Assembly (NCBI GenBank): GCA_026023565.1
Contig: JAPETS010000033.1
Location: forward strand, 248,001-312,000
DNA from: Cirrosporium novae-zelandiae
Lineage: Eukaryota
Direction: 5' to 3'
Length of the DNA: 64,000 nt
Shown: positions 4,025 through 48,272 of the stretch, piece after piece
How positions within the stretch are numbered: position 1 is the stretch's first letter
Layout of the letters: every line of letters starts with the position of its first letter
The notes under the pieces: generated by a model
Database searches by the model: none
The model's input: only the letters and a program-made list of their open reading frames with translations
What the model was told of the DNA's origin: nothing
Made by a program: the position numbers and the translations under genes

Positions 4025-5716
4025 TTAATGATATTTGCGACCAGCAGCGGCTCCGTTTGCCCTTAACTTTGCATCCCTACTCTGGCTGGATGAGGCGTCA
4101 AATGATGCGGACCTTAGGGCATTGAAGTTCTGTTCCGCTATCTTGGTTTGATGAAGCTGTAACATGACCGAGAGTGTCAACTTGACCGAATCCACCTCTT
4201 CCATAGCAGCCATTACATCCTTTCTTTTCCGCTGCCACTTCAGTGATCGAACAAGTTGGTGGCCAGGTTTGACTTTGAATCCCTCTAGGACGTACTGCAC
4301 TTCCTCTATTGCCATGTTGCTGTCTTGAAGGGCTTCCCTGCCCAAATTCTGCAGCTCCCCGGTAGGTATTGAGGTACGAATAACTTCAGCGGCTGTTTGA
4401 AGAAGTGCTGAATACTGCATTAGCCTTCTTGAGAGTAGCCGCAATTCCCGGGGTGCGTTGCGTACGCTACGGTAAATATCCATGATAGTGAAAGCGGTTA
4501 TTGCAGCTTGGTCAACTGATTGTATGATGCCGGCCGCATGTCCTAAGCTGTGTACAGCGTCGACCTCCTCAAATTCCAAACGTCTGGGAAACGTCTTATT
4601 GCTGGGAATACGTGATTTTTGAAAACTACTTCCTTGAGGGTCAGATGACTGTGGTTGTCCAGAAATGCCGTCATGGTTTTGATAATGGGCCTCTACAGTC
4701 TCTTCGCTGGGTCCATCTAGGAGGTGTTGGCGAGGCCTACCCACATTCTGGTTTATATATTCTCTTTCTTGCTCGGATAGTTCGTCCAAGTTGAATGAGC
4801 GCAGATATTCATTGATGTCGCCTGCTAGAGTGTTGTGGCTACTCTCCTCCGCTTCAGTCCCTTTCTCGCCCACCCTAGCTTCCTGTTGGCTTGGAAAAGG
4901 TTGCTCTGTCGAGTTGGTAGCAGATTGAAGAACCCGTTCTTCAGGCATTGAATGAGGCTGTGTACTAGATATGTTGATGCTAACGCCATTTGGTAGCGTA
5001 TGAATCCTTCCACCGCTCTGTAACGGTATATCCGGTCTCGCCAAGAGTCGCTCATACACGATATCAGTGAGATCATCAACCCTGTGAAAGATATCAATCC
5101 CACCAATTGGGTTGGGATCCCAATGGAGATAGCCCTGCATTCCATGTGTGCTTTGATATGCCGTTACTCTCGGAGCTAAACTCTGTGCTAGCCCTAGGAG
5201 GGGAGGTCTTGGTTGAGTGTGATTGCCCACAATTGACCTTGATCGTCAATTAGCATAGAACTCTGTAGCAACTATTCCGAACTACTACACTCACAGAATG
5301 CTAGTCTGTATCGCGATTTTGACAAAGTCAAGCTAGGTAGCAAGACTGCTCTTGAACTTGTCAAGATCATCAGCGGCCATGAAAGCCCATTGGACCTTTC
5401 TTGGAGCGCTACGAAAGTACCCGCGTCCAGAACCCTGGCCCATCGATTTCTCATATTGAGCGATAGTCTTTCGGAAGTTCTGGACGAATTCCTTGACGGT
5501 TGTTGAGTGCTTACTGATGCTCTTTCGAAACGACTCTGGAAGATTCGAAAGGTCGAGGCTTTGCAGCTCATTCATGACACAGAGGAAACCCTGATATTGC
5601 TGTTCCGCGAGCTGGAACTGGGATTTTGAGCCGCCTTCATCTTTCGACGACAAAATAACCTTCGAAGTGAACTCCGTAAATAACGCGGCATCTCCTAGCC
5701 CAAAGCCGAAACTCAT
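4025..5716 (-). pseudogene. Protein with two HeLo-like (fungal STAND N-terminal-type) domains; intron 5294-5238; one in-frame TAG at 5335-5333
   Basis: Starts MSFGFGLGDAALF...RKVQWAFM...DLDKFK; after the TAG the frame continues LDFVKIAIQTSIL and splices (GTGAGT...GCTAAT...AAG) in frame into the 401-aa ORF, whose C-terminal part has a second such domain (LGHAAGIIQ...YRSVRNAPREL...RSLKWQRKRKDV...KLTLSVML). Confidence 0.65.
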
Positions 5717-25423: not shown

Positions 25424-27831
25424 AACCTCGGGGGTTCAAATACAACGTCAGTTCACGTCAAACAAGTCAAAGAGACCTTTCTCGCACACAAACACACACA
25501 CACACATATGTACTATACGTCAATTAATACTTTGAACCAACAACCCCATGTACGTGCGCTGCGTGCGTGCGGGTACGGGGTGCCGAAGGCGGGTGGAGTT
25601 CGGTAAACAATAAATTAAAATTAATTAAATGATGTTTGTTTCGTTTGTTGGTTCGTTTATCGTATGCAGATCCGGGGTATTGGGGTCAGCGAATGTTTTG
25701 ATTAAACTTAATTTATATTCATTACTTTCACGAACAAAAAAATGTCAACGCATGGGTGGGTAATTAGGTGATTGTATTCTTGAAAAAAAATGGAATTTTG
25801 ATTGTTTTGTTTCGTTTTTCTTGGTTATATATTTAGGTATGGACTATGTACGTGTATATTTATGCGTAATTTTGTGTATTGTGCGTTTAGGATTCGGTAA
25901 TTTATTAATTCTAATTAATAGATACCTAGGCAGATAGATAGATGTACTGTACTGTATTATATAATTACCTAGGGCCTAGTCAAAGGATACAGTGATCCAA
26001 AAAGGTAGGTTCGGGTTTAGGTTCAAATGCCGAAACGGCAGTTCTTTTAGATACGTACCTAGGTAGGTAGCTTGATTGTTCCTGTACGTATCGTATCGTA
26101 TCTGTTCTCCGCGTTCCTTATCAACAATAACCGATGCGTAGTAGTGCCTTTTACTTGTAGATCCCAAGTCAAACGCCACTCTCTCCTCTGCCCCTCCCCG
26201 CCTCAGCCCTTAAAAAAAAGTGGGGTCGATCGAACCGAGGATTGTTATTGTTGTTACCGTCTGTTTCCTGTAATTTACTAATTACAGAAGTACCCCGGTA
26301 GTTCTACTTGGAGATATGTAATTGCCGAGGCTCCTCGGTATAAATATGGGTGGGTAATGAGCCGAGAAAAGTATGGTAGGGTACTTGCCTAGGTGGGTAG
26401 GGTACTTGCCTAGATGGGTAGGTACCTAGGTAGGTAAACAGTTGCTGTACCTAACTGAAGCGGGTTAGGTTATATGTTTGCGTAGTTTGCGTAGTTTGCT
26501 TAAGGATTTATATAGCCCCTCAGCGGGTTGCAAACTTAGAAACTACAACATACGCCCTTTACTGAAATTGCACATTGCACCTAGTTGTATACCATGGACC
26601 TAGTTAGAAATTCAAGGAATAACCCTCCTTTGCACTACACATAGTGGCTTTTCTCTTGAGGCTCAACATTTGTTCATCCAAAAAATCGACGCCCGATTTT
26701 GCCTGATTCTGCCCGAAAATATTTATCTAGCCTATCATAACTTTTACATGACACCTGCGAGCGGCACCATTTGTGAACAATCTAGAGGATACACAAGAAT
26801 CAATCCTGGCTAAGATACCAGATATCCTCTTAACCCACAACATTCAAGACTTTGCTTATCCGCATTTTCATATCAATCCCACTTAACTCCATCAAAACCT
26901 ATACCACTCGATACCTACCGATCTATCTACTTCTAATACCTCACTCTAAGCCCCTCTCTCCAACAATCCCTGTTAGGAATTCTGACTTGGTCAGCTACCA
27001 GCTCTACCATGATGAAAGAAAGCCTTTGTATTTTATCTATGACCCAACAACTTACGGGCAATCATATCGTGATTTATGAAAAGGCAGAAAGTCCCTATGC
27101 ATTCCACCACCACGCAATCTAGATCCATGACGGATGTTAATGAAATTCTCATTCCCTCTGGGCATTGAGTAGCTTAATTTGCGAGGTAGAATTGGCCCGC
27201 GTTTGATGGGAGCCACGATTATTTTCAAGGCTTTGAGGTTTATTTTTCTCAGAAGCCAAGGTGGTGGTCTCATAGCTGACCACTAGCACCTTGAGGTTAA
27301 ACCATTGTTATCGTGCCCCAGTTTGGGGTGTCTCGATGAGGCTGAGGAATATGTCAAGCATGATGGTGGGGTTGCATGTGGCAGCAGTGCGCAGGAATTG
27401 CTCCGCCTTGGTGACGATGAAGGATTTCTGCTGCCCTCTAGCATGAGCTACAGCAAGTTCAGCCTCTCTGTTAGCATATGCGAACATTTCACACTCACAG
27501 CAGCGACTTTATCTGGGTTCATAGGCATAATGGTAGGGTTCATTTGCAGTGCTTGACGGACGACATAACGGAGAAGATCTTCGAGCCCTTGTATTGGTTT
27601 TGTGAGTTCTGTTGGTCCAAGGGTCCATGTTTAAAAGCATGCGATCCCTCCGTTGGACTAACCAGACTGTCTACCTGCAATACTTGAACTCCTATCACCT
27701 GCTCATCATCAATTCCCCCATTCGACCTTCAAAATCTTTTGCCCCAAACAGCTTTCTCGATAATCTTACCTCGTCTAAATGTCATCAAAGGGTAGATATT
27801 TCACTTTATCGAATCCAAAGAACTTACGCTC

Positions 27832-28350
27832 ATGAAGGCCTTATTATTAGAGCCTACAGAAATTAAGACCGCCCCTCCAACTTGTCAAAGCGAGGATCCT
27901 CTTCCAAAGAGCTCCTGTACCATGGTAGCTATTATCTCGGCCGTCGCTCCTCGTACGTAACGTCAATACAGTGTTAAATTAAATTATTACTGACACGATC
28001 ATCTATCTAATCTAGCCAGCAATGATGAACACCTCGCCCTTCCTTTGAGCACAAATAGCAGCGATAAACACCTTACCCCTTCCTTGAGCGCAAGTGGCAC
28101 TGTTTCGGTTCAAAGCAATCTCAATCAAGCTTCTGAGAATGCTTCCCAGTTCAATGCACCGGTCTCGAAAGACTCTGTCTGCTATTCAGCTTTTCGTGAG
28201 ATCAAAGCTACAGAAAACAGCGCTAAGGGAAGCTCCCTTCAGCTCAATAGCTTTTGTTCAGACGCAAATGGGGTTGCCACCATCATGAACGCCAAGGTCG
28301 CCAACGCCACCAGCCATGTCATACGGCATCCTCCTAGCCAAGGACCTTAG
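27832..28350 (+). CDS. Small protein (about 151 aa), or the surviving 3' end of a decayed gene, with a paired amyloid-like motif; intron 27953-28015
   Basis: GTACGT...CTGAC...TAG intron joins MKALLLEP...AVAP to SNDEHL...; carries NQASENASQFNAPV and NSAKGSSLQLNSFC. Upstream sequence (about 27420-27830) looks coding but is interrupted by stops. Confidence 0.55.
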
Positions 28351-29296
28351 GCCCTTCTTTAGTGCTAGTTATTTTGCTTGTGGGAAACCCTTTGCACTGG
28401 ACACCAACGTTTGATTGAGATGGTGAAGGAGTTACATAACAGGAGGGGAAGGTGTTGCAGGGAGTTGGTCACTCCCAGTCACGTCTTAGCAAGAAATAAT
28501 CAACTGATTGTCACCTTTATCAAAAGGGTGGTCTACTTACTGTCACTACTATCTTGAAATCCCATCTACCAAATGAAAGCCTTTCTTAGTATTTTCGTGT
28601 GTTTTATTAATAGCTACTCAGATACTCGAGTAGTTATGATGATATCTGGTTTGACGTTAGTAGGCCCAACATGCGGGAAGTAAAGTTCTTATTAGACAGT
28701 TTTTCCGTGGGTTTGTCACAACACTTAGCATACGGTCATTGAACGTAACAATCCACGTGGAGTAAATATTCACCTTGTTTATCTTATAGCATTGGGGGAA
28801 CTCTTATTCTCAGAGGATTATGGCTTTAGAAAGACAGCCACTTTTAGTAAAATTATAGGTAGGCGTGGTAATTCAACGCGTTTATAACTGTTTCAAAAAC
28901 TTTTATTTCAAGTTCTTCCAGACCTTGATTGCCCAAGGTTGATTTTGGTCTATCACATGTGTGTATATATATATATAGTATATATACTTAGGATGTTGCT
29001 GCAGTAGATACCTGCTTAGTATATTTTTGATTTCTTTTGGATTAGATAAAGGATTAATAGATAAAATCACGCGGAGATAAAATAAAGTGTTGTGAATCGG
29101 GTGTAAAAATCTTTCCGCACTCCGCACGGCCTAGGATAAGGGCTTTATCTAGGTGTAACTTGATGTGGGTTGTATTTAGTTAATGATCTAAAGTCTAAGG
29201 TAGAGAGCTCACTTTATAAGGTGAGCCTTAGGGCATATGCCCTCGCAGCCTAGCCTAATAGGGAACCGTAATACTCTAATTAATAATTAAAATTTG

Positions 29297-29389
29297 GGTC
29301 GGTCTATCAAAAAATTTGGTCTGGTTGGTTAAGGTCTATAGACTGTCTATGGTAGACCGTTTATTTGGTCCGGTCTATTGCCAACACTA
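29297..29389. mobile_element. Terminal fragment of a TAGACC/GGTCTA-repeat DNA transposon family
   Basis: Ends ...GGTCCGGTCTATTGCCAACACTA, nearly the same as the end at 36237; subterminal GGTCT repeats. Confidence 0.6.
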
Positions 29390-30296
29390 TAATAACAATG
29401 GCACTGGGGCCCTCCTAAGCAGCTAGGAGGAGGAGCGTAATTTATGTATCGTTTGTCTGCAAGCATCAGGATGGCCGTAGTGTCTGGTAATGGTGACTTT
29501 TTTCAACACTGAACACTAGTGAATACCCGACACTTGCGGCTACCCTAGCAAGCACAGACCCCTCGCGGGGTATATATACATACTCGAGTAGCCTTGGGCT
29601 AGAAATCTTCATGCTTTTACAACTCATAAATCCTGCCCCAATAGCACTATTTCCCTAATAGGATAATATACTACACTTTTAGAAGTTAAGTCTTATCGAA
29701 CATAACAGAGCTGATATATATATGCACTGTAACATGAGCTGATTAGTCTTTTTTCTAATAAAGGCAAGTGATCTGTAATGCGTTGGCTTTGCATGAAGCT
29801 TGTATAGAAACGAGGCGTAAAATTCACGCCATAAATTAAGACAGAAACGATGAGTAATGCCCTATACTGCCCATCAATGCCGCTCGTTGGTAGAGGTGTC
29901 ATGTAAAGATTATAATACCACAGTCAGGGAAGGGAATAGACCACACCAGACCGGTCTGAAGGTGATTATTGTTGCGGGAACTTTATTATTGCAGCAACCG
30001 TCGTGAACATCCTTACTGCCGATTTGTGCCGTCCCAACATGAGGTTATTATGTTAAAGCGGAATCAGGCATAAAGCTTTTAATACATAATATTGAACCTT
30101 ATCATTAGATCAATAAACCTGTCAGCCTTACTCACCTGGTTATACGTTGTCAGAACAGTTATAACCAAAAAGTATTATATCCGAAAGCCTCATTTCTATC
30201 TTAGTAAATTGCTTTCGTCTTTGGCACATATTCATTATCAATTTGCCCTTTTATTATCCTTCCTCTTCTCGTGCAACTTAAAATATACTAAGATTT

Positions 30297-31268
30297 ATGG
30301 TGAATTCATTGGAATCTAATATAAATAAAAATCTCACTAACAATATATTCTAGTCCGGTCTCGAAGTTCTTGGGGCTGCTTCTGCTGCGTTAGCCTTATT
30401 AGAATCAGCGTTGCGCATTATCGGGCACGTTCGCAAGGCTTATCGACGCCAAAAAAACTTTACAACAGTCCTTGATCGCCACAATCATGAACTTAAGGAC
30501 ATAAAGACCATTATCGCAGTAACTGAACATGAAAAGGCGCTAAGAACAGAAGCTGTTACTTCTGAATTGATTAAAATCAAAGCTATTGGACAGAGGCTGG
30601 TAGATCATCTAAATACTTTGGCACCACAGGATAAAAGAATTATGCGTCAATTTACCGATCAGTTAATAAATGGGTCAAAAAATGAAACCATACTAGCCAA
30701 TGTTATGGATGAACTCTCTCGCGCAAAGTCCAACCTTAGTCTGTATATTCAAGTTGCCAATGTTGGGTTGACATGCACTGTTGAGGGTATCTTCATCGTG
30801 AACGCCATAGCTGTTAGCCGAATCGACAGTCTCGTTCAGCAAATACTTGGTCAAGGACAAGGACTTGAAATTGCTGAATTTCTTAGAGACCGATCTTTTC
30901 AAAGTATGTTTCACAATCTAATATCTTTAAAAAAAAACTGACAATGAATAGATGATAATATAGTGACCCTGACCGACGCCGATATGAAATCTTTCTGTGA
31001 TAGAGTGGCAGCTATTACTAGCGATCTAAACGCTTCTGCAAGCTCTTCAACCGACGCAAACCTCGATACCTCGCGGACCGTTCTGAATAATTCGACGGAA
31101 GGCCAAGCTTTACAGATCAATGGTGCAGTTGGGGAGAAAGGTTGGTGGGAGGTTAAGCACCTCACGATCAAGGACAATAAAGCTATTGAGGAGAGTATAC
31201 AGATTAATCATGGAATCTCTATGGATGTATTCAATCGTTTATTGGGCTCTAGAGCTGTGTCGATCTAG
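30297..31268 (+). CDS. HeLo/SesA-like N-terminal domain plus C-terminal two-repeat amyloid-like motif (about 289 aa); ATG-only first exon, introns 30300-30353 and 30904-30951
   Basis: Spliced start MSGLEVLGAASAALALLESALRIIGHV (hydrophobic first helix), helical domain, S/T linker, then NNSTEGQALQINGAV and DNKAIEESIQINHGI. Both introns are canonical and keep the frame. Confidence 0.8.
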
Positions 31269-31488
31269 AGATGGTTCTTTGGAATGATTGTCTTGGCATC
31301 AGGGTTGGGAATGGACCAGACCGTCGGTCCCATAGGCCGCGCGAAACATGGAAAAGGTTGTACATCTTGATTCACAATATATTATTTAATCTTCACGTGA
31401 TTTTATTTAATCAATTATCTAATCTATAATCTAATCTAAATAAAATGAAAAATATAATTCCATTAGTAGTATCCTAAGTACTTAGGTA

Positions 31489-31692
31489 TCTCCTAAACTG
31501 GCTTCCCATGTCACACGCTTGCAGGGGGGGTAATGCTGAAAGGTTTATTGGTTCAATGATAAGATCTTAAGGCTCAATGGTATTCATCAAAGAACTTGAT
31601 GCCTGACCCAGCCTGGAAATGGTTATCTGACTTATTATAATCCTTACATAACACCCCTACAAGCGTGCGACATTGGAAGCCAGTTTAAGAGA
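31489..31692 (+). mobile_element. MITE of about 204 bp, copy 1 (Tc1/mariner-like, TA target)
   Basis: Terminal inverted repeats of about 35 bp: TCTCCTAAACTGGCTTCCCATGTCACACGCTTGCAG / CTACAAGCGTGCGACATTGGAAGCCAGTTTAAGAGA; preceded by TA. Confidence 0.8.
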
Positions 31693-31894
31693 TGATAGCC
31701 TTTCTGACTTATTAACGCAGGTGGCGTAAGGCTAACAGTTTGATTGTCAAAGAGATTTACGAAGACTTCAAGGATGCGCGTTCGTGTCTCGCTTGCTGCT
31801 TTAAAGGCTCTTGGATAAAAGCCTCACCCAAGTTTTATATATTTGCCCTTGAAATTTTTAGCATTGGCCCCGAAGTTTTTAATATTTTCTATTA

Positions 31895-32090
31895 TCTCCT
31901 AAACTGGTTTTCCATATCATACGCTTGTAGGTGTATCATATAAGAATTATAATAGTTCGGATAATTATTTCCAGGCAGAATCAGCTATCAAGTTTTTTGA
32001 TAAATAAAATTGAGCCTCAAAAATTTATTATTGGACCAATAAACCTTTCAGTATAGACTACAAGCGTGTGACATAAACCAGTTTAGGAGA
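31895..32090 (-). mobile_element. MITE of about 196 bp, copy 2, inverted relative to copy 1
   Basis: TA|TCTCCTAAACTGG...CCAGTTTAGGAGA|TA; its reverse complement aligns with copy 1 over the whole length. Confidence 0.82.
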
Positions 32091-32107
32091 TAGTTTAGCA
32101 ACGATAT

Positions 32108-32260
32108 TGTTACGGTCCCCTATTATATTCCCGATCGAGTTAGACTGCTAGGGCATATACCTGAGCACCATTTCGATAACTTGAGCTCCCCACCCTAGGT
32201 TCCTAGACCTCAGTCATCAATATCCACACCAGCTATACCCCTATCTTAGGCGTTGTAACA
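32108..32260. mobile_element. Probable short or internally deleted solo LTR
   Basis: Bounded by TGTTAC...GTAACA; flanks GATAT and AACAT differ only by transitions, so a decayed 5-bp target-site duplication is possible. Confidence 0.45.
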
Positions 32261-32281
32261 AACATATAGACAATAAAATAA

Positions 32282-32343
32282 ATCATTATCATCATTATCA
32301 TTATTATTATTATTATCATTATTATCATTATTATCATTATCAT
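32282..32343. repeat. (ATC/ATT)n microsatellite
   Basis: Directly visible. Confidence 0.9.
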
Positions 32344-32441
32344 AAATCTATAACCTCTCCTTCACTGCCCTAATCAAACATAGGAACGGAATCTAAAACT
32401 TACCACAAGCACGACACACCTGGTACCATGTAAAGGTGGGC

Positions 32442-33274
32442 TTAGTCGCGTCCTAGGGGGAAGGAATAACTGTGTCCTGGGCGGAAAGGATACCCATATC
32501 TTGGAGAAAAAGGACAACCATATCCTGGTGGATATGGATAGTTATATCCTGGGGGATAGGGATAGTTATATCCTGGGGGATAGGGATATCCTGGGGGATA
32601 GTTATATCCTGGGGGATAGGGATATCCTGGGGGATAGTTATATCCTGGGGGATAGGGATAGTTATGTCCTGGAGGATAGGCATAGCCGGGTCCTGGAGGG
32701 TATGTAGACATGCTCATGTTCTGGGGGATAAGTGTCGGAGGCCTTTCTACCGAGAGGCCGTTCACCTGGGAGCTTTGCCCCCCCGCCACGTTGTTTCGAC
32801 TCTCGATGCTAATAGAAGGTAGAACGGACGTTTGGTCATTGTAAATTATTCCATTGATCTGGGTAGCCGTTCCATAAGCGTGATTACGAGTAGATACAAT
32901 GCTGCCAGCAAAACTTATATTCGGTTGAGGGGTGGTAAATTGCTCATCGTTCACTAGATTGGATATTAGTATTAGTAACGGTTTAGTTTCATAAGATGTA
33001 CTGAAAGTGGTTACATACCAGGCATCTGGCTCGTGGTAGTATCCGGACTCGCAACATCAGGATCTTCGGTAAGGGTCGCTGGAGATTGGAGCTCGGATCG
33101 AGGACTGGAAGTGGCCGTCTCGATTTTCGCGATAGTTTGACCATCGGTATAGGGTACCAGATATTGGGATTTGCTTGAAGAGTCGAGAATAGGTATCTCG
33201 GTTGTCACGGTACTATCATCCTCGGTACGGGGTACTGAAATTTGGAGTTTGTTTGGAGGATCAGGGCTTGGCAT
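32442..33274 (-). CDS. About 255-aa low-complexity protein: S/T/P-rich N-terminus, paired amyloid-like motif, C-terminal YPPG repeats; intron 33018-32954
   Basis: GTATGT...CTAAT...TAG intron joins ...TTTSQMP to VNDEQF... in frame; contains RNHAYGTATQINGII and RNNVAGGQSSQVNGLS, then seven PPGY repeats. Confidence 0.75.
32520..32702 (-). repeat. Coding minisatellite encoding (YPPGY[N/P]) repeats
   Basis: Recurring TATCCTGGGGGATAG units on the plus strand. Confidence 0.9.
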
Positions 33275-33823
33275 CTCGATTGTCGTGACGAGGATTTGTA
33301 ATTCAAAACTTTGAACGGTTTAGACTATATTCAAGAATATAAAATACTAGTTGATGACACCTTAGTGAGGCAAGACCATTAAGAGGAGAGATTTTTGATA
33401 GTAGAATATTTAAGATGCGGACTAGCTAGGGGTATATATTGGAGGGTCGGCTCATAAAGTATCACTACAAAGTACTGTACTGTGCAAAATCCTTCTAATC
33501 CTAGGTAAGGCTGGTGGGAAGTGTTAGCCCTAGGCAGCCGAATAACACTCGAGTATGTTCTTATGATCATACTTTCATTAGCTTGTGCGACATAATAATG
33601 ATATATTAACGATATACCAACCTATAGAATTTCAATATCAACAAGTCCTACAAGTACTTTAACGGGAAAGCTTAATTTATGAAAACAGCGCCCAGTACTA
33701 AGGCAGGATATTAAGCCTAACGCCCTATTCTAACAACGTAAATCGGGCTCTTTCAAGTCATGAGTTCAAATTCTTCAAGGGATATTCCGGCTCACGTAGT
33801 GACGCCCTATAGGGACTTGGCAT

Positions 33824-36237
33824 CAGGGAAGAGAATGAACCAGACCAAATAGACGGTCTAACCACGATCGACTAGACCGACCAGACCTTCATTTCCCAAG
33901 GTCTATTTAGTCTATGTCTATCATGTAGATATATAATATTAGAATGTTTAGGATACTAATAGAATTATACATAGTCAATCCTAGAATAATTGTTAGCTTG
34001 CCCTATTTTGACAGAGGTCTTAGCTGTCTGCATTTTAACTGCTCCCCCTACAATTTTCTATATAACTACCCTGGAATTTTGTATGTGAACCTCCTGTATC
34101 TATAACAGCCTGATATCTCTTTCCTATATAAGTAGTTGTGAAATAGGGGTAAACCATTTTTCCGCGTTCCGCACCAACTAGACTAAACCTCTCCGTCTAT
34201 AGACTAACTGAACATGCTTGCCCAGCATCATCCTCAAAAAATCTTTTCTCATTGACATCGACGGTTCGTTTATCAAGCCATATAGAAACGAATATTTTCT
34301 AAATACTATCACTTCAATTCTTGATAAACTTGTAAAAACTACACGCATTCAAAAATTCTCTGACGAATTTTACATGATGAAAAAGCAGGGATGGCTAGAA
34401 CTGAAGAGGATTTTTCTACAATTATCAGGGCACAATAAGAAGCACTGACAAGCATCTAATCATTAGGGCGTTCTCAATCACGCAGAATTCGTATACCAGT
34501 TCTTCAAAGCCTTGCTAGGAGTTGGGGCACACTCCATGAAGCAAAGTTCTTGAACTATACCGAACCCGCCAAATGGTAGAAGCTGTCTCTACTCTATACG
34601 CCTATATAATCAAGCCTCTTCATCAGTCTTTCAAATGGTACAATAGAAGTCCAGCGGTGAGATTGTTCGCTGCTGTCTACAGCCCTTCGAACTCAATTAC
34701 AAGGATACAGTCGAAAAAATAAGGAAGCGCATCGATGATATGGTCAACCTCACTAGTATAGCAGCGAAAGCAGAAAAGAGAGATATTCATAGGGAAGTAT
34801 GTATGGAACGGACTGAGAATGCTCCTGCGACTACCGATATTATGAATGTATTTCTGAGCGAAATCTCAAAGCAACACAACGACCATCAGAGGCAAAATAT
34901 AATCTTAGAACGATTGATCCACCAATTTGACGAACTTGTGAAAGATGCAATGAGTTGATTATTTTTATTTATTGGCTTTCTTCTCCCGACCTTGCCACAA
35001 GAATAGAACCCTAACAGCTGAATAGTCACCAATTCTATCAATAATAAGGTCGACAATAAGAGATCAGCAGACTAAATTCTAGATCCACAGGTGCAGGATA
35101 GCCCCATAATGTGACAAAGAGGACGAGAGCTTCTCGATCGATTTCTGTTCTTTCTTCGTGGATGGACAGGAGACGCAGTATCTGTCCTAAGCACCTATTA
35201 CTTCCTGCTTGACCTGGGCCATGCCATTGCGATACTCAATCCATGAGCGGGTGAAGCAACTGGAACAATACCTATGGGCTTCATTAGAACTAGCCGACGC
35301 TCAAGTGAATCTGTGGTTAGTCGAGGCACAATTCAATAGGTTGAAAGCCTTAAAGGAAGACAGCGAAAGAGAGGGACCAGACAGACCAGATGGGTCCCCC
35401 TCGGTCTGATCCGTCTATGAAAATTGAAAGCTCGGTCTAGTCGGTTAGACTGACTACACCCTCAAGGAAATAATATTTTTGGAACGAGAGCCTAGTTTTC
35501 TGCAGTCTAAAGGTTCACCGAAATTGCAGCACAGACCCCTTCTTTTCTTTTTTTCAAGTATGTATCAGCTTTCAGAGACAAGATAAGAATTTACCCCAAG
35601 ATTTGAGACCAAAGAAATCTGGCAGCTATCCGTATTGAGGAGCGTTTAATCATTCTTCATCCGGACTATCGCGTTGGTCTGCAAGCTAGGACTGACAATA
35701 TTCGACCGTCGTTGCAAGAGTTAAGAATGGGATTCTTATATATCTAAGCTTTATGTAGTTGCAAAGAATTGGGGCACGTCAATCAGATTCAATTTTTGCA
35801 GTGGAATAAATATTTTATTCATAGATATATGTCGTAACCTGCAGGACCATGGAAGAGGCATGAATCAGACTATTTATTACCTTTAAAGGCCTTCAAATCT
35901 AAAGCCTAGGTACTATAGACATGCGGTAGACACACACCGTCACAAGGGCTTTAAATCTCAACACTAGACTGTCTCAAAAGCAAGATTTCTTTCAGTGAAT
36001 ATCCTCTAAATGTACAGTACTCGGCCATCATCAAATTCCCTACGACTCTACGGGAGAGATTAGAATAATGATTTAGCCAAGCTAAAGAATGGTTGATAAT
36101 ACTGAAGTACTTGATTACTTAACTGGTTATCTGGAATAATTCGTATTTATATAGACCAAATAGACCTTGGACAATCAAGGTCTGGTCGGTCTAAGGTCTA
36201 TAGACCGTCTATTTGGCCCAGTCTATTGCCAACACTG
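33824..36237. mobile_element. Possible non-autonomous TIR element (hAT-like ends) about 2.4 kb long
   Basis: 33824-33920 and 36151-36237 are inverted repeats (AGACCAAATAGACGGTCTA...AGACCGACCAGACCTT...CCAAGGTCTATTT); ends CAGGG.../...CACTG. No target-site duplication found. Confidence 0.5.
34467..34958 (+). pseudogene. Frameshifted fragment resembling the N-terminal helical domain found upstream of NACHT in fungal NLR/STAND proteins
   Basis: Across three frameshifts it reads GVLNHAEFVYQFFKALLGVG / LHEAKF / ELYRTRQMVEAVSTLYAYIIKPLHQSFKWYNRSPAVRLFAAV / LQPFELNYKDTVEKIRKRIDDMVNLTSIAAKAEKRDIH. No P-loop seen downstream. Confidence 0.6.
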
Positions 36238-38194
36238 AGATCTATGGATGGATGGAGAAGATGTATGGAATATCTTTGATCAGGTGGGTGCCCCTTCCTG
36301 ATCTATATATATAGCACCGGGAGCTAGATCGTGTTGGAGATTGACATGTTGAACCGTCGCCGGGTGAAGCTGATGATACATGTCGTAGTCTACCATATAA
36401 TTGGAATTGAGCTAGACACAGCAGTTCTTATAGTTAAACCTTGTTTTTCTAACATCTCCTTCTTCAAATTAAAGGTAGCAAAATCTTAAGAGATAATAAG
36501 GGCAGGGGGTGTTATTGGTACAAGTACCTCCGAAGAGTTATGAGGCTAGGTAACACGGAATGTGTGATTTTTGCGGTAGAAAACACCCGTTAAAGGCCCA
36601 GGAGTAGTATTTTAGATCTTGAATGGGGTTGCCGCAGACTGTAAATGGCCATTCAGAGCACTTGTACGCACGGGTGTGTTAGATGTGGTTCCTCTCGAGA
36701 ATATATGCTCAGCCTCTCCGAATTCTGAACCGTATATGTCGTCTGGACATACTCAAGCATTGTCGTGATAAAGTCCTGAAAACCCTGGCTCTTTACTCTC
36801 TGAGACTTGGTGAAGAACTATTCGATAAGTGATACAGTTGTTTGTATGGTGAATGGAATATCTGAGATATCTTCTACCTAGAAAATGGGGCAGGAGCAGA
36901 GGCTACAAGATCTTTGAGGTCTTTGCGGAAATTTCTAGGCAAGATCTTCAACTTTTCGGACATAGGGCGAGCCTGTTCGGCGTCCTGAACTAGGCCCTAG
37001 GAGTAGACGCGGGGGGGGGGGCTTCTCAAGCTGAAACTTCATCATCTGGCAGTACCTTCTGCGACTGTAGTTCTTGTAACCCACAAAGGCTGCAGTTTCC
37101 TGACACTGACGGTATTATTTCAAGCAAGAAGTTGGAAATTTGCCTCTGAGAGTGGTGCGGCTTGTGTCGCCTGCAAAATAGCTGTGGTATATCGACGTGA
37201 CAACTCAACATGGCATGATCTTGACAATGTTCTTTAGTCCACGGATATGATGTATCTCCAATTCTATGAATCTCACTGCCACCCATATCATCATCAAAAC
37301 TATCCTTTAAACTCAGACCCAGAATCGGACTCGTTCTGTACACCATCCTGTTGATGGAGAGATTCGCAGCAAATTACCTGATCAATCGTCAACCACTTTT
37401 ACTAAAGATTCTAATTATTTCTTCCATCTTTCACCTCATCGTTATAGTTCTTACGCACCGCAATACCTCTCAAATCCTATAGCCCGTTAAGTAGGATTTC
37501 GTTTTCCTTCTTCAAGTTGACTGGTTTTTTGGGATAGTAGTGAGGAATCAAGTTGATTGCCCGTAGTAGATGGTGGATATGATGTCAATCCTGTTACTGT
37601 GAGAGGACACTCCGAGAGGACACTGGGGTTATGTTCATGTCCCATGTATATGATGAGGCAGCAAAATAAAATCTGTCACGACTGCACATGAGATAAACTA
37701 GCAAGTCTGTATCACACGAATCTGAGAACCATCAAGACTGGTTAATCCTTAATAGGTATCTCAAATGAAAGCTGAAATTGTGAAGCCAACTCCCATTCCC
37801 GTTCAAAGCAACCAACAAAAGCTGCATATTGTCGAGGTACTTAGTACCTCCCAGAATTATTCGGGCATATCAACGTAAATAGGGGTGTCAGTTGTAGGTA
37901 TTACTCGAGTATAACCGGTATTTTTAGTTTCGTTACTCTTGCCCTTTTTTATAAAAGCTTCATCTCTGCAAATCAGCGAAATATAGCTCTAGCTAGATTT
38001 AGGGATCCACAGCCCCTTGTTTCTCTGATTAATTCAGGGATCGACCCTAGTTCCTGAAACCCCCAGTGTGCTCGGCCCACACCAAAGTCTTGCCCCACAA
38101 TAATCAACGTCATCATTTCTAACGTGACAATTCGCGACACCAAAACGCGAGGTTCGGATGTCCTGGATACTCGGCGCAGACAAAACTGCTCGTT

Positions 38195-44529: not shown

Positions 44530-47500
44530 ATGGAGGGAGTTCAAGGTGTCGACGTGAGCTGGCTACATCATTCTTGCAAAGGTACGTTGTCGGCTTCAGC
44601 TACCATTTTCAATCCAATTGCCTCCCCGAGTGAAAATCAATCATAGCAAGCGTCGCGAGATTGATCTCTTTATAGACCATACCCAACGACCACACACTTC
44701 TATAGAGGCCGTCCCACGCAGCGACTCTCCATCTCCTCGTCTAGAACCGAACCATAAAGAACCCGCAACATCCCCCACACCTTCTCCCCTTGCGAGTCCG
44801 CCATTAGTTGCTTCTCCTCCAAACGGAGCCGCTTCGCCACCGCCGCAACCGACTGCCAATTCAAGACCCCATCCTATAACTCGTACAAATTCCGATCGAC
44901 CCCCAAATACAAACTCCAAACCAAAGTCCATGTCAAGGAGGAACTCATGGATTTCAAGCATCAGTCAGAGATTCTCATCCACGCCAGCACCTCGCCCGCA
45001 GAACCCAGCCACAGATCATTCAAACAATCAAAAATCACAGACAAAGAATACCTCACCCCCGGACCCGAATGTAAATCCCTTTGGAGCAGCAGTCTCTCCA
45101 GCTGTCCACCAGGAAGAGAAAAAGGAAACCGCTTCTTCCCAACAACAACCTGCAAAATCCCATCCAGGCTTCTTTCAGTCTGCCTTCCGAAGGCTATCCT
45201 CTTCTGGGGTGGGAGGATTAGGTCGATCAGCTAGCACTGGATCGGTTTGCACTCGAAAGGTGATGAATGTCGACCCATACCGTGATCGTTGCAAGGTTGC
45301 AGATTTGGAATCCGCAAAATTACGAAGAGTCGCATTTTGCGTGGACGTGGAAATTGCGAGTACACCGCGGTACCCAGCTGAAGAGGAAGCACCCCAACCT
45401 CCACCTGAACGGCGGCCAAGCCTCGAAGCGCTCGAACATGCCGTAGAGATCAAGAAGAAGAAAAGTGCAGAACAAAAAAGAAAGGGTGAAGGCGAAGCTC
45501 TGAAACACCCCGAAGAGGTTGCCAAGTCAAAAGAACAGAATGGTGTTGTCAAGGGTGAGACGCTGACTAAAGAGGAATCTGAACGAAACCAGAGTCAGGT
45601 TGAGATAGACATGGAAGCCTTGAAAAGGAAGAGGGAAAAGAAGAAGCAGAATGAAGGCGCCCGGAAAGAAAGAAGGGAACGAAGGCGAAGACTAGCAGAA
45701 GCCAATGGAACGGTTCCTTTGGAGTTGACTTTGGAACTGGACAGTAGCAGTTCATCAAGTCCGTCCGGAACGGCTACGCCTAATGCTCAAGATAAGCCAA
45801 CTACAGACCCCTTGAGAATATATCGAAGATGTTGCCAGCTTCGAGAAACCCCAGTACTAAAAAAGATTGTGGAAGAAGTCACCGCCCCATCTTCAGTCCT
45901 CGCAGAAGCACCAGGGACAGTAGGCTGTCTTAACCTCAGTAATTATACCATTAAGCTAAATGACTGTATCACTATGGGCGACTGGCTTGCTGTTGTTCCA
46001 GTAAGGAAACTGATTCTCGATAACTGCGGCCTTACGGATGAAGCCATACGAATTATACTGGCAGCTTTGCTCGCCGTCAAAACTATGGAGCAAGCACGGC
46101 ATAACAAAACTCTAGCAAAGAAAAAGGGAACTGAAAGCGAAGACGCTGAAGAAGAAAAGTTGGGAGTGGTTGAAACCTTGTCACTCAAAAATAACCCAAA
46201 AATTGGCCCTGAAGGTTGGCGATACATTGCCTTTTTCATCTACATGTCGCGAACGCTCAAGGCTATCGACTTGTCCGGGATACCTTTTCCTCAACCTCCT
46301 TCTAATCCTTCGCATGGACCTGGCCATCTCATGCGAACAATGAGCGGACACCAGGTACCCCCTTGTTTGATGTCCATTTTTTCAAAGGCTTTAGGTGAAA
46401 GACTGGCATGGAATCAGCTCGAACAGCTTGTTATAGGAGAATGCAATCTGTCTGCCGAGTGTATTGGAAAAATAGCGGATGGGGCGATACAGTGTAAATT
46501 ACGCAGGCTTGGTCTTGCAAATAATCACTTGGATCATAAAGGGTTGGAACATGTTGCCCGATACGTGGCTGCAGGTTACTGTGAGGGCTTGGATCTAGGT
46601 GGTAATGACATACCGCAAAATTTGCCCACCTTGATAGATGTTTTACATGAAGACAGCTCTCTGGTTGCTCTCAGTCTTGCGGAATGCAACTTATCGCAGG
46701 GTTCGCTTTTACCACTGTTTCCCGCCCTCATGAAGTTACCCAATATTCGTTTCCTCGACCTCTCGCATAATCGAAATCTATTCGCAACACAACCTGATGC
46801 TTTAAGCCTCCTCCGAAAATATCTTCCTCTCATGCCTTCCTTGAAACGAATTCATCTTCACGATGTGGATATGTCCCCCGACCATGCAATTGCGCTTGCA
46901 GAGATATTGCCTGAATGTGGGGGTCTCTGCCATATTGGTCTCCTAGAGAACAAAGCCTTGGTGGCTCTGGCTGATGCTAAAGATGAAGCAAGCCAAGAGG
47001 AAGCATGTGCGCTTTATGCGTCACTGATGGTCGCCGTCAGAGTCTCGAACAGTATCATATGCATTGATATCGAGGTACCCAGTCAGGAATCCAGTGAAAT
47101 TGTCAAGGCTTTGGCCAAACAGTTGGTGGCATACTCGCTACGCAACCTTGAGCGTGCTACTCTTGCTGAAAGTTGGATGAATCTTCCACATGCAGGCGAC
47201 AATTTCCCGCTACCAAAGGAAGTCGAAGTTCCAGATGTCCTACTTCATCTAATTGGTCCTGCTGATGGCACAGATGCTTCCAGCGAAGATGAACTTGCTC
47301 CGGATGATGACTATGTCATTGGAGGCACTGGCGTTGTTAAAGCGCTCGGTATATGCCTAGGATCGGCTCATAACCATAGCAGACGCCCATCTCGGGACGG
47401 TACTCCAACTGGTAGCGGAACCATCACACCGAGAAACCCCTTGTCATCAGTGGCAAGAGGTAGAGCAAGAGATGTGTCGAAAGACTTGCTAGGAAGCGCG

Positions 47501-48272
47501 CGAAAAATCAGAAGTCGGATTCAGATTGCGCTAGTTCGAGAAGACAGAGCAGGAAATGATCTCAACTACAGTGAGTCCAAGCAGTATCTGGCTAGATGAT
47601 TGTTAATCTGAACATGGCCTGTTAGGACGGTTACAATTCCTGGATTCTACGTTGAAACGTATAATCGAAAGATTTGAGGATGAATATCCAGAGACTCGTA
47701 TACCCGATCCGCTTGACGTGCCGGGCATTGCTCCCGACTCCGTCTCCGATCATGGTTCTTCGGAAGATACGTCACTTAACTCTGGAAAGAAGTCCGAAGA
47801 CGCTGCTGGCGGATCCCCAATGTTCCACGAGGATGATGAAGGCATGATTATACATCCTCTTTCCCGTCGTAATTCGGATGTGTCGATTGCCTCACGGGCT
47901 TTGACCACGGAAGAAGGTCAAATGCATCGATTTGGACAGAAGATGCGGCGGGATATACTTCGTCCACAGATGCATGATCATCTTCACGGTACCACCGGGG
48001 ATGAGGAGGATCTCCTTCATATAGCTGCATTACGAGAGAGACTTGAAACTCTTTCGGGAGCGGAGATTCGATCCATGGTTGACAAAGATGGGGTTAAGGG
48101 AGTATTAACGCAGCTCGGTGCGACAGTTGAAGAGTTGATCACTTTGAAGAAAGAAGATCCAGCAGGGCTCGAGAAGTTGAAAGCAGCACAACTAACAGCT
48201 TTATTAAACATTGGCACGTCGAACAAAGCTAATGGGGATGATGAATCGGCTGCCGAGGATATCACGACCTAA
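44530..48272 (+). CDS. MHP1: Mhp1/Gip3-like RNI-type leucine-rich-repeat protein; introns 44582-44675 and 47571-47625
   Basis: Start MEGVQGVDVSWLHHS; RVxF-type motif LRRVAFCVDVEIA; IYRRCCQLRETP; LRRs (LSLKNNPKI, LDLGGNDI, LDLSHN); spliced YRRLQFLDSTLKRIIERFEDEYPE. Confidence 0.8.

What the first reader, a model, noticed from the sequence alone, without database searches (positions are those of the whole stretch)
27832..33274. Three adjacent unrelated genes share one paired HET-s-like amyloid motif: candidate amyloid-signalling cluster
Seen in sequence: six copies of one motif, two per gene, all with N-x7-Q-hydrophobic-N. Gene 27832-28350 has NQASENASQFNAPV and NSAKGSSLQLNSFC (Q-to-Q spacing 31 aa). 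Gene 30297-31268 has NSTEGQALQINGAV and NKAIEESIQINHGI (29 aa). Gene 33274-32442 has NHAYGTATQINGII and NVAGGQSSQVNGLS (31 aa). Consensus N-x-[AT]-x-[GE]-x-[AS]-x-Q-[IVFL]-N-[GASH]. Outside the motif the proteins show no similarity, and standard annotation would call them hypothetical. Established: HET-s/HET-S and related HRAM proteins use two pseudo-repeats to form a beta-solenoid, and genes sharing a motif (e.g. het-S and nwd2) are clustered. Inference: these three proteins co-assemble through a shared motif. The arrangement is unusual because every partner has two repeats and none is an intact NLR with a single N-terminal repeat.
Basis: partly seen in the sequence, partly recalled or inferred. 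Interest (0 to 1): 0.9.

Follow-up and report, generated by a model that had tools for sequence, protein, structure and literature searches.

The report
Cell-death amyloid gene with two truncated copies
A fungal locus holds one cell-death protein that is probably switched on by amyloid templating, flanked by two cut-down copies that keep only the amyloid-forming tail; the kind of system is known, but effector-less copies beside it were not described in the papers read.

Summary
The six motif copies are real and not chance: they are the only six matches in the 64-kb window, against 0.89 expected.

The three genes are not unrelated. All three share one homologous last exon. A profile built from 117 outside proteins finds genes 1, 2 and 3 at E 8e-8, 1e-33 and 9e-7.

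Gene 2 (KAI9730889.1, Cirrosporium novae-zelandiae) has a HeLo-like/MLKL-like helical domain followed by a two-rung C-terminal amyloid domain. AlphaFold2 gives pLDDT 89. It belongs to a Pezizomycotina family of at least 202 clusters.

In other genomes this gene lies head-to-head with a NACHT NLR that carries one copy of the same motif at its N-terminus. The motif is therefore a canonical NLR-to-executioner amyloid signalling motif. It does not fit the published HRAM1-5, PP or sigma signatures.

Genes 1 and 3 keep the motif-defining residues but have no effector domain. No cognate NLR lies in the window.

Whether genes 1 and 3 are expressed, or co-assemble with gene 2, is untested. They may be modulators or decaying relics. 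I rate this a new variant of a known kind, of moderate interest.

The parts
27832..27952 (+). Gene 1, exon 1. No known domain.
   Evidence: Sequence read; P0018; accession; no Pfam hit.
27953..28015 (+). Gene 1 intron (GTACGT ... CTGAC ... TAG), phase 1.
   Evidence: The splice reproduces P0018 exactly.
28016..28350 (+). Gene 1, exon 2: the amyloid-domain exon, with repeats at 28123-28164 and 28216-28257 spaced 31 aa apart. It lacks the family's G-E-D-x-W turn and C-terminal helix.
   Evidence: The family profile that excludes the window's own proteins gives E 8e-8 and 28.7 bits, covering both repeats. It matches the family consensus at 9 of 12 highly conserved columns and 3 of 28 others.
30297..30299 (+). 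Gene 2, exon 1 (the ATG only), followed by intron 30300-30353 (GTGAAT ... ACTAAC ... TAG).
   Evidence: The splice gives P0001.
30354..30903 (+). Gene 2, exon 2: HeLo-like / MLKL-like helical domain, residues 2 to about 184.
   Evidence: Family N-domain HMM, E 1e-73. ESM Atlas nearest clusters are PF17111/PF17107, score 0.95. AlphaFold2 helices 2-30, 35-60, 67-90 and 97-134. VIA-align to MLKL 6ux8_A gives Z 11.4, rmsd 2.8 over 124 aa.
30952..31268 (+). Gene 2, exon 3 (after the phase-1 intron 30904-30951): linker plus amyloid domain, with repeats at 31089-31130 and 31176-31217 spaced 29 aa apart, then a C-terminal helix.
   Evidence: Family C-terminal profile, E 1e-33. AlphaFold2 strands 225-229/232-233/238-240/244 and 254-258/261-262/267-269/273, each pair offset by +29.
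33019..33274 (-). Gene 3, exon 1: Ser/Thr/Pro/Asp-rich, no known domain.
   Evidence: no Pfam hit.
32954..33018 (-). Gene 3 intron (GTATGT ... TACTAAT ... TAG), phase 1.
32442..32953 (-). Gene 3, exon 2: amyloid-domain exon, with repeats at 32844-32885 and 32751-32792 spaced 31 aa apart, followed by a Pro/Gly/Tyr-rich tandem-repeat tail (about 32445-32717).
   Evidence: Family profile E 9e-7, 25.1 bits, covering both repeats. It matches 9 of 12 conserved columns and 9 of 28 others. Tandem repeats of period 18/36 lie at 32496-32699.
34540..34955 (+). Fragmentary DUF7708 coding relic in two frames. It is a neighbour and not shown to be part of the system.
   Evidence: Pfam PF24809: 43.7 bits at 34540-34719 and 22.2 bits at 34647-34955. 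No NACHT was found downstream.

Best explanation
Gene 2 is a HET-S/HELLF-type cell-death executioner. It has an N-terminal HeLo-like (MLKL-like) helical bundle and a C-terminal prion-forming domain made of two pseudo-repeats, h-x-h-x-x-N-x-[AT]-x3-[AS]-h-Q-h-N.

Inferred mechanism, by analogy with NWD2/HET-S and FNT1/HELLF: an activated NLR that carries one copy of the motif oligomerises and forms an amyloid template. The template converts the gene 2 tail into a two-rung beta-solenoid. This releases the helical domain, which damages the membrane.

Shown here:
- the domain architecture of gene 2;
- the size of its family;
- NLR partners with a single N-terminal motif copy in other genomes.

Genes 1 and 3 arose by partial duplication of the last (amyloid-domain) exon of such a gene and acquired unrelated, disordered 5' exons. 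They keep the residues that define both repeats but have no killing domain. If they are expressed, the most likely consequence is that the same template can recruit them, so they would act as non-toxic co-aggregating modulators (decoy/cap or amplifier, like the HeLo-inactive HET-s form). This last step is inference only.

The cognate NLR is not in this 64-kb window. It may lie elsewhere in the genome or may be lost.
For: Motif.
- Six of six window-wide matches fall in these three genes, against 0.89 expected.

Gene 2.
- It is identical to the 289-aa P0001 / KAI9730889.1.
- Five homologues were found, and the three full-length ones keep the double motif.
- AlphaFold2 with 40 sequences gives pLDDT 89.3 and pTM 0.74, with a helical bundle and two sets of four short strands offset by exactly 29 residues.
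- For residues 1-200, the ESM Atlas nearest clusters all carry PF17111/PF17107, score 0.95 with 189 of 256 shared features.
- VIA-align matches to death-executing helical bundles: MLKL 6ux8_A Z 11.4, 4btf_A Z 11.1, NRG1.1 CC-R Z 10.5, MLA13 Z 10.1, Rx-CC Z 10.0, AtMLKL3 Z 9.1.

Family.
- A double-motif profile finds 202 representative proteins at E<=1e-3 and 101 at E<=1e-10 among 1.84 billion.
- Named members come from Aspergillus, Botrytis, Fusarium poae, Verticillium, Madurella and Pyrenochaeta.

NLR link.
- In L003/L004 the homologous gene is head-to-head with an ORF carrying NPHP3_N/NACHT (E 1e-38), DUF7069, GPIID_WHD and DUF7104 repeats. Residues 9-20 after its Met form one motif copy.
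- L001 shows the same arrangement, but both genes are broken by in-frame stops.
- That makes 2 of 2 distinct loci in which a partner was seen. L003 and L004 are near-identical. L007 has 937 bp of upstream flank with no motif copy. The other three loci have little or no upstream flank.
- Nine of the 120 best relatives of that NLR carry a single N-terminal copy, including proteins of Zopfia rhizophila and Corynespora cassiicola.

Genes 1 and 3.
- The family C-terminal profile, built without the window's own proteins, gives E 8e-8 and 9e-7 across both repeats. The next ORF scores 5.6 bits.
- The intron lies at the same place and in the same phase as in gene 2.
- Matches to the family consensus are concentrated at conserved columns: 9 of 12 versus 3 of 28 for gene 1, and 9 of 12 versus 9 of 28 for gene 3.
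- The reading frames stay open for 118 and 204 codons.
- The family's N-domain HMM finds nothing upstream of either gene.
Against: N-terminal domain of gene 2.
- No Pfam family reaches its cut-off for gene 2 or for any of 36 family members scanned. PF17111 is sub-threshold in 4 and SesA in 1.
- Foldseek gives no match at E<=1e-3.
- The VIA-align Z values tie with generic helical bundles (top row Z 11.5). The tool warns that helical models reach Z 13-14 without being related.

Missing trigger.
- No NLR with the motif lies in the window, so the trigger for this locus is unknown. The rest of the genome could not be searched.

Genes 1 and 3.
- There is no evidence of transcription.
- Gene 3 has no matching record in the protein collection.
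- Both have lost the family's nearly invariant G and W after repeat 1 and the C-terminal helix.
- Their 31-aa repeat spacing occurs in only 1 of 111 family pairs.
- No clear effector-less relative was recognised elsewhere. Most short database hits look like last exons called on their own.
- The counts at conserved columns lean towards the profile, because the alignment was made to that profile.
- The surrounding DNA is rich in short dispersed and inverted repeats, has RIP-like dinucleotide bias, and holds a decayed DUF7708 gene. This fits a locus where genes decay.
Confidence: 0.6

Rival explanations
1. Only gene 2 is functional. Genes 1 and 3 are non-functional leftovers of partial duplications of the amyloid-domain exon in a repeat-rich, decaying immune-type locus. 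Their open frames and upstream 'exons' are fortuitous or recent.
For: - Neither has an effector domain, and no relic of one is found.
- Both have lost the conserved G/W turn and the C-terminal helix.
- Their repeat spacing is atypical (31 aa; 1 of 111 family pairs).
- Gene 3 has no matching record in the protein collection.
- No effector-less relatives were recognised among the 150 best family hits.
- A neighbouring DUF7708 gene is fragmentary.
- Dispersed and inverted repeats and RIP-like indices are seen in the intergenic DNA.
- A related locus, L001, shows that this gene pair does decay.
Against: - Both exons stay open (118 and 204 codons) even though divergence is so deep that they are only 30% identical to each other and 20-27% identical to gene 2.
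- The real pseudogene in L001 is riddled with stops.
- The N, A, Q and N positions of both repeats survive in both genes while other columns have drifted.
- Both have canonical splice signals, and gene 1 is in the source annotation.
- RIP-like indices are not raised inside genes 1 and 2.
Confidence: 0.33
2. Genes 1 and 3 are not passive. They replace the missing NLR as nucleators. Their repeats are low in charge and rich in S/T/G/N/Q, like NLR-side copies that must stack on themselves. Gene 3's Pro/Gly/Tyr-rich tail could drive self-association that seeds the fold and triggers gene 2.
For: - In an 18-aa window, gene 3's repeats hold 1 and 2 charged residues and 10 and 12 S/H/T/G/N/Q residues. 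NLR-side copies average 1.33 and 10.8 (n=9). Family repeat 2 averages 3.42 and 7.35 (n=113).
- The HRAM paper explains low charge in NLR copies by homotypic stacking (PMC4518210, section 3).
- No NLR with the motif lies in the window.
- P/Q/Y-rich tails after the amyloid domain recur in family members P0105, P0119 and P0141.
Against: - This rests on composition only, from two repeats.
- Gene 1's second repeat has 3 charged residues.
- The family members with such tails still have the HeLo-like domain.
- There is no precedent in the papers read and no expression data.
Confidence: 0.05
3. The shared motif is a chance or compositional resemblance in low-complexity ORFs.
For: Pairwise BLASTP of gene 2 against genes 1 and 3 is weak on its own (E 0.066 and 0.023).
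Against: - Six matches against 0.89 expected, all paired at 29-31 aa.
- An independent family profile gives E 8e-8 and 9e-7, against 5.6 bits for the next ORF.
- The intron position and phase are shared.
Confidence: 0.02

Closest known systems
HET-S/NWD2 and HELLF/FNT1 of Podospora anserina (HRAM amyloid signalling; Daskalov et al. 2015, PMC4518210; bioRxiv 10.1101/2020.07.06.188508)
   Same: - A protein of about 290 aa with an N-terminal HeLo/HeLo-like killing domain and a C-terminal domain of two pseudo-repeats separated by a short loop.
- Two in-register rungs of four short strands each are predicted.
- In related loci an adjacent NLR carries one N-terminal copy that is low in charge and rich in S/H.
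   Different: - The sequence signature differs. No register gives the invariant Gly19, the Lys/Arg15 or the full hydrophobic pattern in both repeats.
- There is no PF11558 hit, and no profile match to any solved HET-s or HELLF chain at E<=10.
- At this locus the NLR is absent and two effector-less copies of the amyloid exon are present.
Three-gene amyloid clusters: sesA/sesB/het-eN (sigma motif, Nectria) and HELLP/SBP/PNT1 (PP motif, Chaetomium), as described in PMC5485727 and PMC7885112
   Same: Three neighbouring genes share one amyloid motif, and one of them encodes a HeLo-like executioner.
   Different: - In those clusters the three proteins are an NLR and two different effectors (pore-former and lipase), each with one motif copy.
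- Here there is no NLR and no second effector domain.
- Every protein here has two copies, and the sharing comes from duplication of one exon.
- The PP core G-h-Q-h-G is not met (here [AS]-h-Q-h-N), and there are no Ses_B or NACHT_sigma Pfam hits.
HET-s, the HeLo-inactive prion allele of het-S (role recalled from the literature; summarised in the abstract and introduction of PMC4518210)
   Same: A protein that can adopt and propagate the amyloid fold without killing by itself. This is the closest functional analogy for an effector-less carrier of the domain.
   Different: HET-s keeps a full, though inactive, HeLo domain and is an allele of the executioner. Genes 1 and 3 lack the domain altogether and sit beside the executioner as separate genes.
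MLKL four-helix bundle and plant CC / CC-R domains
   Same: Best fold-level matches to the gene 2 N-domain: Z 9.1-11.4, rmsd 2.2-3.1 over 99-124 aa.
   Different: No sequence-level relation was detected, and the Z values are not above those of unrelated helical bundles.

Membership tests
HET-S/HELLF-type amyloid-controlled executioners (HeLo or HeLo-like domain plus C-terminal prion-forming domain) | N-terminal HeLo / HeLo-like / SesA domain (Pfam PF14479, PF17111, PF17107) | tested here: inconclusive
   - No Pfam hit for gene 2, even at E<=10.
- None of 36 family members reaches a curated cut-off; PF17111 is sub-threshold in 4 and SesA in 1.
- ESM Atlas nearest clusters all carry PF17111/PF17107, score 0.95.
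- Two UniRef names read 'Fungal N-terminal domain-containing protein'.
- Fold matches to MLKL and CC domains reach Z 9-11.4 but tie with generic bundles.
HET-S/HELLF-type amyloid-controlled executioners | Two C-terminal pseudo-repeats that can stack in register | tested here: met
   Repeats lie 29 aa apart. This spacing is conserved in 84 of 111 family pairs. AlphaFold2 strands are offset by +29, with block pLDDT 79-94. This is a prediction only; no fibril data exist.
HET-S/HELLF-type amyloid-controlled executioners | Adjacent NLR with a single N-terminal copy of the same motif | tested here: not met
   In this window there is no NACHT/NB-ARC hit (47 of the 109 ORFs of 90 aa or more were scanned, plus 88 flank ORFs). 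There is no seventh motif copy, and tblastn with the L003 NLR gives a best E of 4.1. The feature is met in related loci L003/L004 and L001 and in 9 of 120 NLR relatives. The published survey found an adjacent NLR for only 98 of 155 such genes (PMC4518210, section 3).
HET-S/HELLF-type amyloid-controlled executioners | Amyloid/prion formation and membrane-targeted killing | not testable with these tools
   Needs fibril assays and in vivo prion and cell-death assays.
HRAM (HET-s-related amyloid motifs, HRAM1-5) | Invariant Gly at position 19 of a 21-aa repeat | tested here: not met
   Seventeen registers were scanned over 101 family repeat pairs. In repeat 2, Gly never exceeds 15% at position 19. 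In repeat 1 it reaches 88% only in a register that fails the other features. In the best overall register it is 4% and 2%.
HRAM (HRAM1-5) | Hydrophobic residues at positions 5, 8, 10, 16 and 18; Lys/Arg at 15; N/Q/H at 3 | tested here: inconclusive
   In the best register (conserved Asn taken as position 3), positions 3, 5, 10 and 16 fit (46-100%). Position 8 (12-16%), position 18 (12% and 56%) and Lys/Arg15 (0-1%) do not. The published logos and sequence lists are in figures and supplements that could not be read.
HRAM (HRAM1-5) | Match to Pfam PF11558 (HET-s_218-289) or to solved HET-s / HELLF amyloid-domain sequences | tested here: not met
   No PF11558 hit at E<=10. The double-motif profile against PDB sequences gives no HET-s or HELLF chain at E<=10. 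Only about 25% of published HRAMs hit PF11558 (PMC4518210), so this alone does not exclude HRAM membership.
PP motif / RHIM | Single pseudo-palindromic copy with the core G-h-Q-h-G | tested here: not met
   The core here is [AS]-h-Q-h-N (A 88% / S 60% before the core, N 88% after it), and the motif is doubled. The PP core is as given in PMC7885112.
sigma motif | Pfam Ses_B (PF17046) or NACHT_sigma (PF17106) match | tested here: not met
   No such hit at E<=10 for any of the three genes' ORFs. The accession PF17106 is recalled, not taken from a call.

The most novel reading that the evidence does not exclude
Effector-less, two-repeat amyloid-domain proteins are a functional, undescribed class of component in fungal amyloid signalling. 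Encoded beside the executioner, they would either seed it without an NLR or buffer it as natural caps or decoys. For the seeding role, gene 3 has uncharged repeats that resemble NLR-side copies, plus a self-associating Pro/Gly/Tyr tail. The motif itself (N-x-[AT]-x3-[AS]-h-Q-h-N, doubled) would then be a sixth, unclassified branch of beta-solenoid signalling motifs, spread across Pezizomycotina.
Probability: 0.12. Interest if true: 0.8.

Novelty: new variant of a known kind. Interest (0 to 1): 0.45.

Why it matters
Amyloid templating from an NLR to a pore-forming executioner is the fungal counterpart of necroptosis signalling. Only a handful of motif families have been described.

This locus points to a widespread family (at least 202 clusters at 50% identity) with three features:
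- its helical domain escapes Pfam thresholds;
- its motif does not fit the published HRAM, PP or sigma signatures;
- it has the canonical NLR partner in other genomes.

The locus also offers a natural experiment: two neighbouring genes that keep only the amyloid domain. If they are expressed, they would show how such pathways are tuned, seeded or silenced without a receptor. That bears on cross-seeding barriers and on how prion-like alleles such as het-s arise. If they are relics, the locus is an ordinary example of birth-and-death turnover at a fungal immune locus.

Tried and rejected
- Whole-genome search: no genome is held for this window, so a cognate NLR elsewhere in the assembly could not be sought. 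The search with the L003 NLR returned no Cirrosporium protein among its 120 listed hits, out of 3783. This says little.
- Expression: no RNA holder was listed for 27800-33300. No reads were laid.
- Complex prediction of the gene 2 tail with the gene 3 motif region: no verdict, scores 0.19 and 0.18 against a mark of 0.34. This is no evidence either way.
- Gene 3 homologue search (residues 1-115): 13 candidates, none significant. ESM Atlas for gene 3 exon 2: no usable hit.
- Profile of the gene 2 family against PDB sequences: only a de novo helical protein. Double-motif profile against PDB sequences: only chance-level hits. HET-S HeLo was not among the 50 VIA-align rows, which is an absence only.
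- Idea that genes 1 and 3 hide decayed HeLo-like exons: rejected. The N-domain HMM finds only gene 2.
- Idea that genes 1 and 3 are each other's closest relatives (a local inverted duplication): not supported. Each is about as close to other family members (best E 1e-5 and 1e-4) as to the other (E 9e-5). The DNA similarity near the intron end is mostly splice and branch-point consensus.
- Idea that a decayed NLR lies between the genes: no tblastn or Pfam trace.
- Earlier findings of this scan: nothing for this genome or sequence.
- Literature: full-text searches for the motif strings found nothing relevant. Searches on amyloid signalling motifs and HELLF/HRAM5 led to the papers cited, and none of the parts read describes this signature or effector-less carriers. 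The motif may be catalogued there.
- First alignment for the metagenome scan was too diverse. A narrower one was used.

Full report
**Observation**

The window is fungal. Gene 2's product is identical to NCBI KAI9730889.1, and gene 1's to KAI9730888.1. Both are 'MAG: hypothetical protein' of Cirrosporium novae-zelandiae (Xylobotryomycetes), on a 341,651-bp contig.

Shuffles give a mean of 0.89 and a maximum of 3 in 100. The copies are paired at 31, 29 and 31 residues.

The splice models hold.
- Gene 2 (ATG 30297-30299; exons 30354-30903 and 30952-31268) reproduces the 289-aa database protein letter for letter.
- Gene 1's intron (27953-28015) is the one used in the database protein, which starts at the inner ATG 27922.
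- Gene 3 (33274-33019 and 32953-32442) has canonical signals, but no matching protein was found in the collection.

**What gene 2 is**

Pfam gives nothing for any of the three genes, even at E<=10. Other lines of evidence are more informative.
- Five homologues (43-53% identity) were found. The three full-length ones keep the double motif at the C-terminus.
- With 40 family sequences, AlphaFold2 gives a confident model (pLDDT 89.3, pTM 0.74). It has long helices at 2-30, 35-60, 67-90 and 97-134.
- After a low-confidence linker the model has two sets of short strands, at 225-229/232-233/238-240/244 and at 254-258/261-262/267-269/273. Each strand of the second set lies 29 residues after its partner. 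A terminal helix follows. This is the strand pattern expected of a two-rung solenoid. I had no coordinates to inspect.
- For the N-domain, the ESM Atlas nearest clusters all carry PF17111 (PigL_N; I recall its former name as Helo_like_N) or PF17107 SesA, at score 0.95.
- Four of 36 family members give sub-threshold PF17111 hits and one a sub-threshold SesA hit.
- Foldseek finds nothing at E<=1e-3.
- VIA-align lists MLKL (Z 11.4 and 11.1), NRG1.1 CC-R (10.5), MLA13 (10.1), Rx-CC (10.0) and AtMLKL3 (9.1). Generic bundles score the same, so this is consistent but not discriminating.

**The motif family and its NLR partner**

A profile of the two-repeat region (A3) finds 202 representative proteins at E<=1e-3 and 101 at E<=1e-10 in 1.84 billion.

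Among the 150 listed, one (P0091) is a bacterial cadherin-type adhesin and a false positive. About a third are 230-360 aa with the motif at the C-terminus. Most of the 54-190-aa hits begin where the last exon of the long form begins, so I read them as exons called on their own, not as small proteins.

Named members come from Aspergillus, Botrytis, Fusarium poae, Verticillium, Madurella and Pyrenochaeta.

A metagenome scan gave seven loci.
- In L003 and L004, which are near-identical, the homologue lies head-to-head with an ORF carrying NPHP3_N/NACHT (E 1e-38), DUF7069, GPIID_WHD and DUF7104 repeats. Nine residues after that ORF's Met there is one copy of the same motif.
- L001 has the same pair, with both genes broken by in-frame stops.
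- L007 has 937 bp of upstream flank and no motif copy there. The remaining three loci have little or no upstream flank.
- Among the 120 best relatives of that NLR, nine have a single N-terminal copy, including proteins of Zopfia rhizophila and Corynespora cassiicola.

This is the defining genomic signature of fungal amyloid signalling, as described for HET-S/NWD2 and the HRAMs (PMC4518210, section 3).

**Is it an HRAM?**

The architecture agrees with HRAMs: two repeats, a short loop, an aromatic residue after repeat 1, and an NLR copy that is low in charge. The sequence signature does not agree.

I scanned 17 registers over 101 family repeat pairs. None gives the 'perfectly conserved' Gly19 in repeat 2 (at most 15%). 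The best register takes the conserved Asn as position 3. It fits positions 3, 5, 10 and 16, but fails positions 8, 15, 18 and 19.

HRAM5's hallmarks (QxFG, QG(QI); bioRxiv 10.1101/2020.07.06.188508, passages) and the PP core G-h-Q-h-G (PMC7885112, passages) are not present. PF11558 and the solved HET-s and HELLF chains are not hit.

I could not see the published logos or supplementary sequence sets. The motif may therefore be catalogued there, for example among the unassigned NLR34/NLR40 classes of PMC9815663 (section 19). That study started from Pfam-annotated effectors and from clustered NLR N-termini. A family whose effector domain escapes Pfam thresholds could be missed that way. This is inference.

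**Genes 1 and 3**

They are not unrelated to gene 2. A profile built from 117 outside proteins, without the window's own two proteins, finds gene 1's exon at E 8e-8 and gene 3's at E 9e-7. Each match is one domain spanning both repeats. The next ORF in the window scores 5.6 bits. The hit list behind that profile came from a search that included genes 1 and 3, which is a mild circularity.

In all three genes the domain begins just after a phase-1 intron. Gene 1 and gene 3 also align with each other upstream of the repeats (E 9e-5). Gene 1 aligns with family member P0092 from the start of the exon. They are about as close to other family members as to each other, so I cannot say they are a local inverted duplicate pair.

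Neither has a HeLo-like exon or a relic of one. Their 5' exons are short or disordered and hit nothing.

They keep the Asn, Ala, Gln and Asn of both repeats: 9 of 12 highly conserved columns. At other columns they match the consensus at 3 of 28 (gene 1) and 9 of 28 (gene 3). They have lost the conserved Gly and Trp after repeat 1 and the terminal helix. Their 31-aa spacing is rare in the family (1 of 111 pairs).

Gene 3 ends in a Pro/Gly/Tyr-rich tandem array. P/Q/Y-rich tails also follow the domain in family members P0105, P0119 and P0141, which do have the helical domain.

**Surroundings**

No NACHT or NB-ARC domain was found. I scanned 47 of the 109 ORFs of 90 aa or more; the overlapping shorter ones were left out. 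I also scanned 88 ORFs of 45 aa or more in the flanks. There is no seventh motif copy and no tblastn trace of the L003-type NLR (best E 4.1).

A fragmentary DUF7708 gene lies at 34540-34955. The intergenic DNA holds a 166-nt inverted repeat and several dispersed short repeats. It shows RIP-like dinucleotide ratios at 26-27 kb and 28.35-30.3 kb, but not inside genes 1 and 2.

**Mechanism and rivals**

Shown:
- the architecture of gene 2;
- the breadth of its family;
- the NLR partnership elsewhere;
- the homology of the three amyloid exons.

Inferred: templating by an NLR copy converts gene 2's tail and releases a membrane-damaging domain. This is by analogy with HET-S and HELLF (abstract of PMC4518210; passages of the HELLF preprint).

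For genes 1 and 3 I favour effector-less carriers that the same template could recruit, acting as a decoy, cap or amplifier. This is only slightly more likely than their being decaying relics (0.33). The evidence that separates the two readings is thin: open frames across deep divergence, and retention of the motif-defining residues.

A bolder reading has them seed gene 2 in place of an NLR. It rests on gene 3's uncharged repeats, which resemble NLR-side copies, and on its repeat tail. I give this reading 0.05 in its narrow form.

**Verdict**

The system is a new variant of a known kind. It combines an apparently unclassified two-repeat motif family that has canonical NLR partners elsewhere with, at this locus, two effector-less copies and no NLR. 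Interest is moderate at 0.45. It would rise sharply if genes 1 and 3 prove to be expressed and to cross-seed gene 2.

Noticed in passing
window 34540-34955 (+): Fragments of a DUF7708 domain (PF24809) lie in two overlapping frames, with no NACHT or other domain downstream. From recall, this domain is mostly found at the N-terminus of fungal NLR-type proteins. It looks like a decayed gene next to gene 3.
   Followed up: partly
window 31533-31698 / 31889-32054; also 29353-29388, 36201-36236, 33823-33915, 36151-36238, 28918-28945, 29917-29947, 31292-31322, 33816-33846: A 166-nt inverted repeat (80% complementary, 190 nt apart) lies between genes 2 and 3. Several short dispersed direct and inverted repeats flank the three genes. 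They look like MITE-like or transposon relics.
   Followed up: no
window 26001-27000 and 28351-30296: The TpA/ApT ratio is 1.13-1.36 and (CpA+TpG)/(ApC+GpT) is 0.85-1.02, the direction expected of repeat-induced point mutation. Genes 1 and 2 and housekeeping genes show 0.5-0.9 and 1.3-1.4.
   Followed up: partly
window 4028-5245 (-) and 8593-9579 (-): A 406-aa ORF has a sub-threshold PF17111 (HeLo-like type) hit at E 0.0011. A neighbouring ORF has a T6SS_Tle1-like/DUF2235 lipase-type domain at E 2.7e-25. This may be a second cell-death or immune-type gene pair about 20 kb away. Neither carries the motif.
   Followed up: no
L001 74-493 (-) and 974-1882 (+): A metagenome locus holds the same executioner/NLR pair, but both genes are interrupted by several in-frame stops. 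It is a pseudogenised copy of the system.
   Followed up: partly
database proteins P0022, P0032, P0029, P0105, P0119, P0141, P0154: Variants of the family. P0022 has three repeats. P0032 (and probably P0029) has ankyrin repeats in front of the double motif. P0105, P0119 and P0141 have a P/Q/Y-rich tail after it. P0154 is 998 aa, with the motif at 219-273 and a long unannotated extension.
   Followed up: partly
database proteins P0003 and P0162: A gene 2 homologue (HeLo-like exon only) and an NLR with an N-terminal motif copy are both recorded from a Logan contig of 7892 bp. This may be a third independent adjacent pair. Whether it is the same contig was not checked.
   Followed up: no
window 32282-32344: An (ATT/ATC)n microsatellite, about 9 copies of a 6-9-nt unit, lies just downstream of gene 3.
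   Followed up: no
window 44558-47596 (+): A 1013-codon open frame has no Pfam hit at E<=0.01.
   Followed up: no
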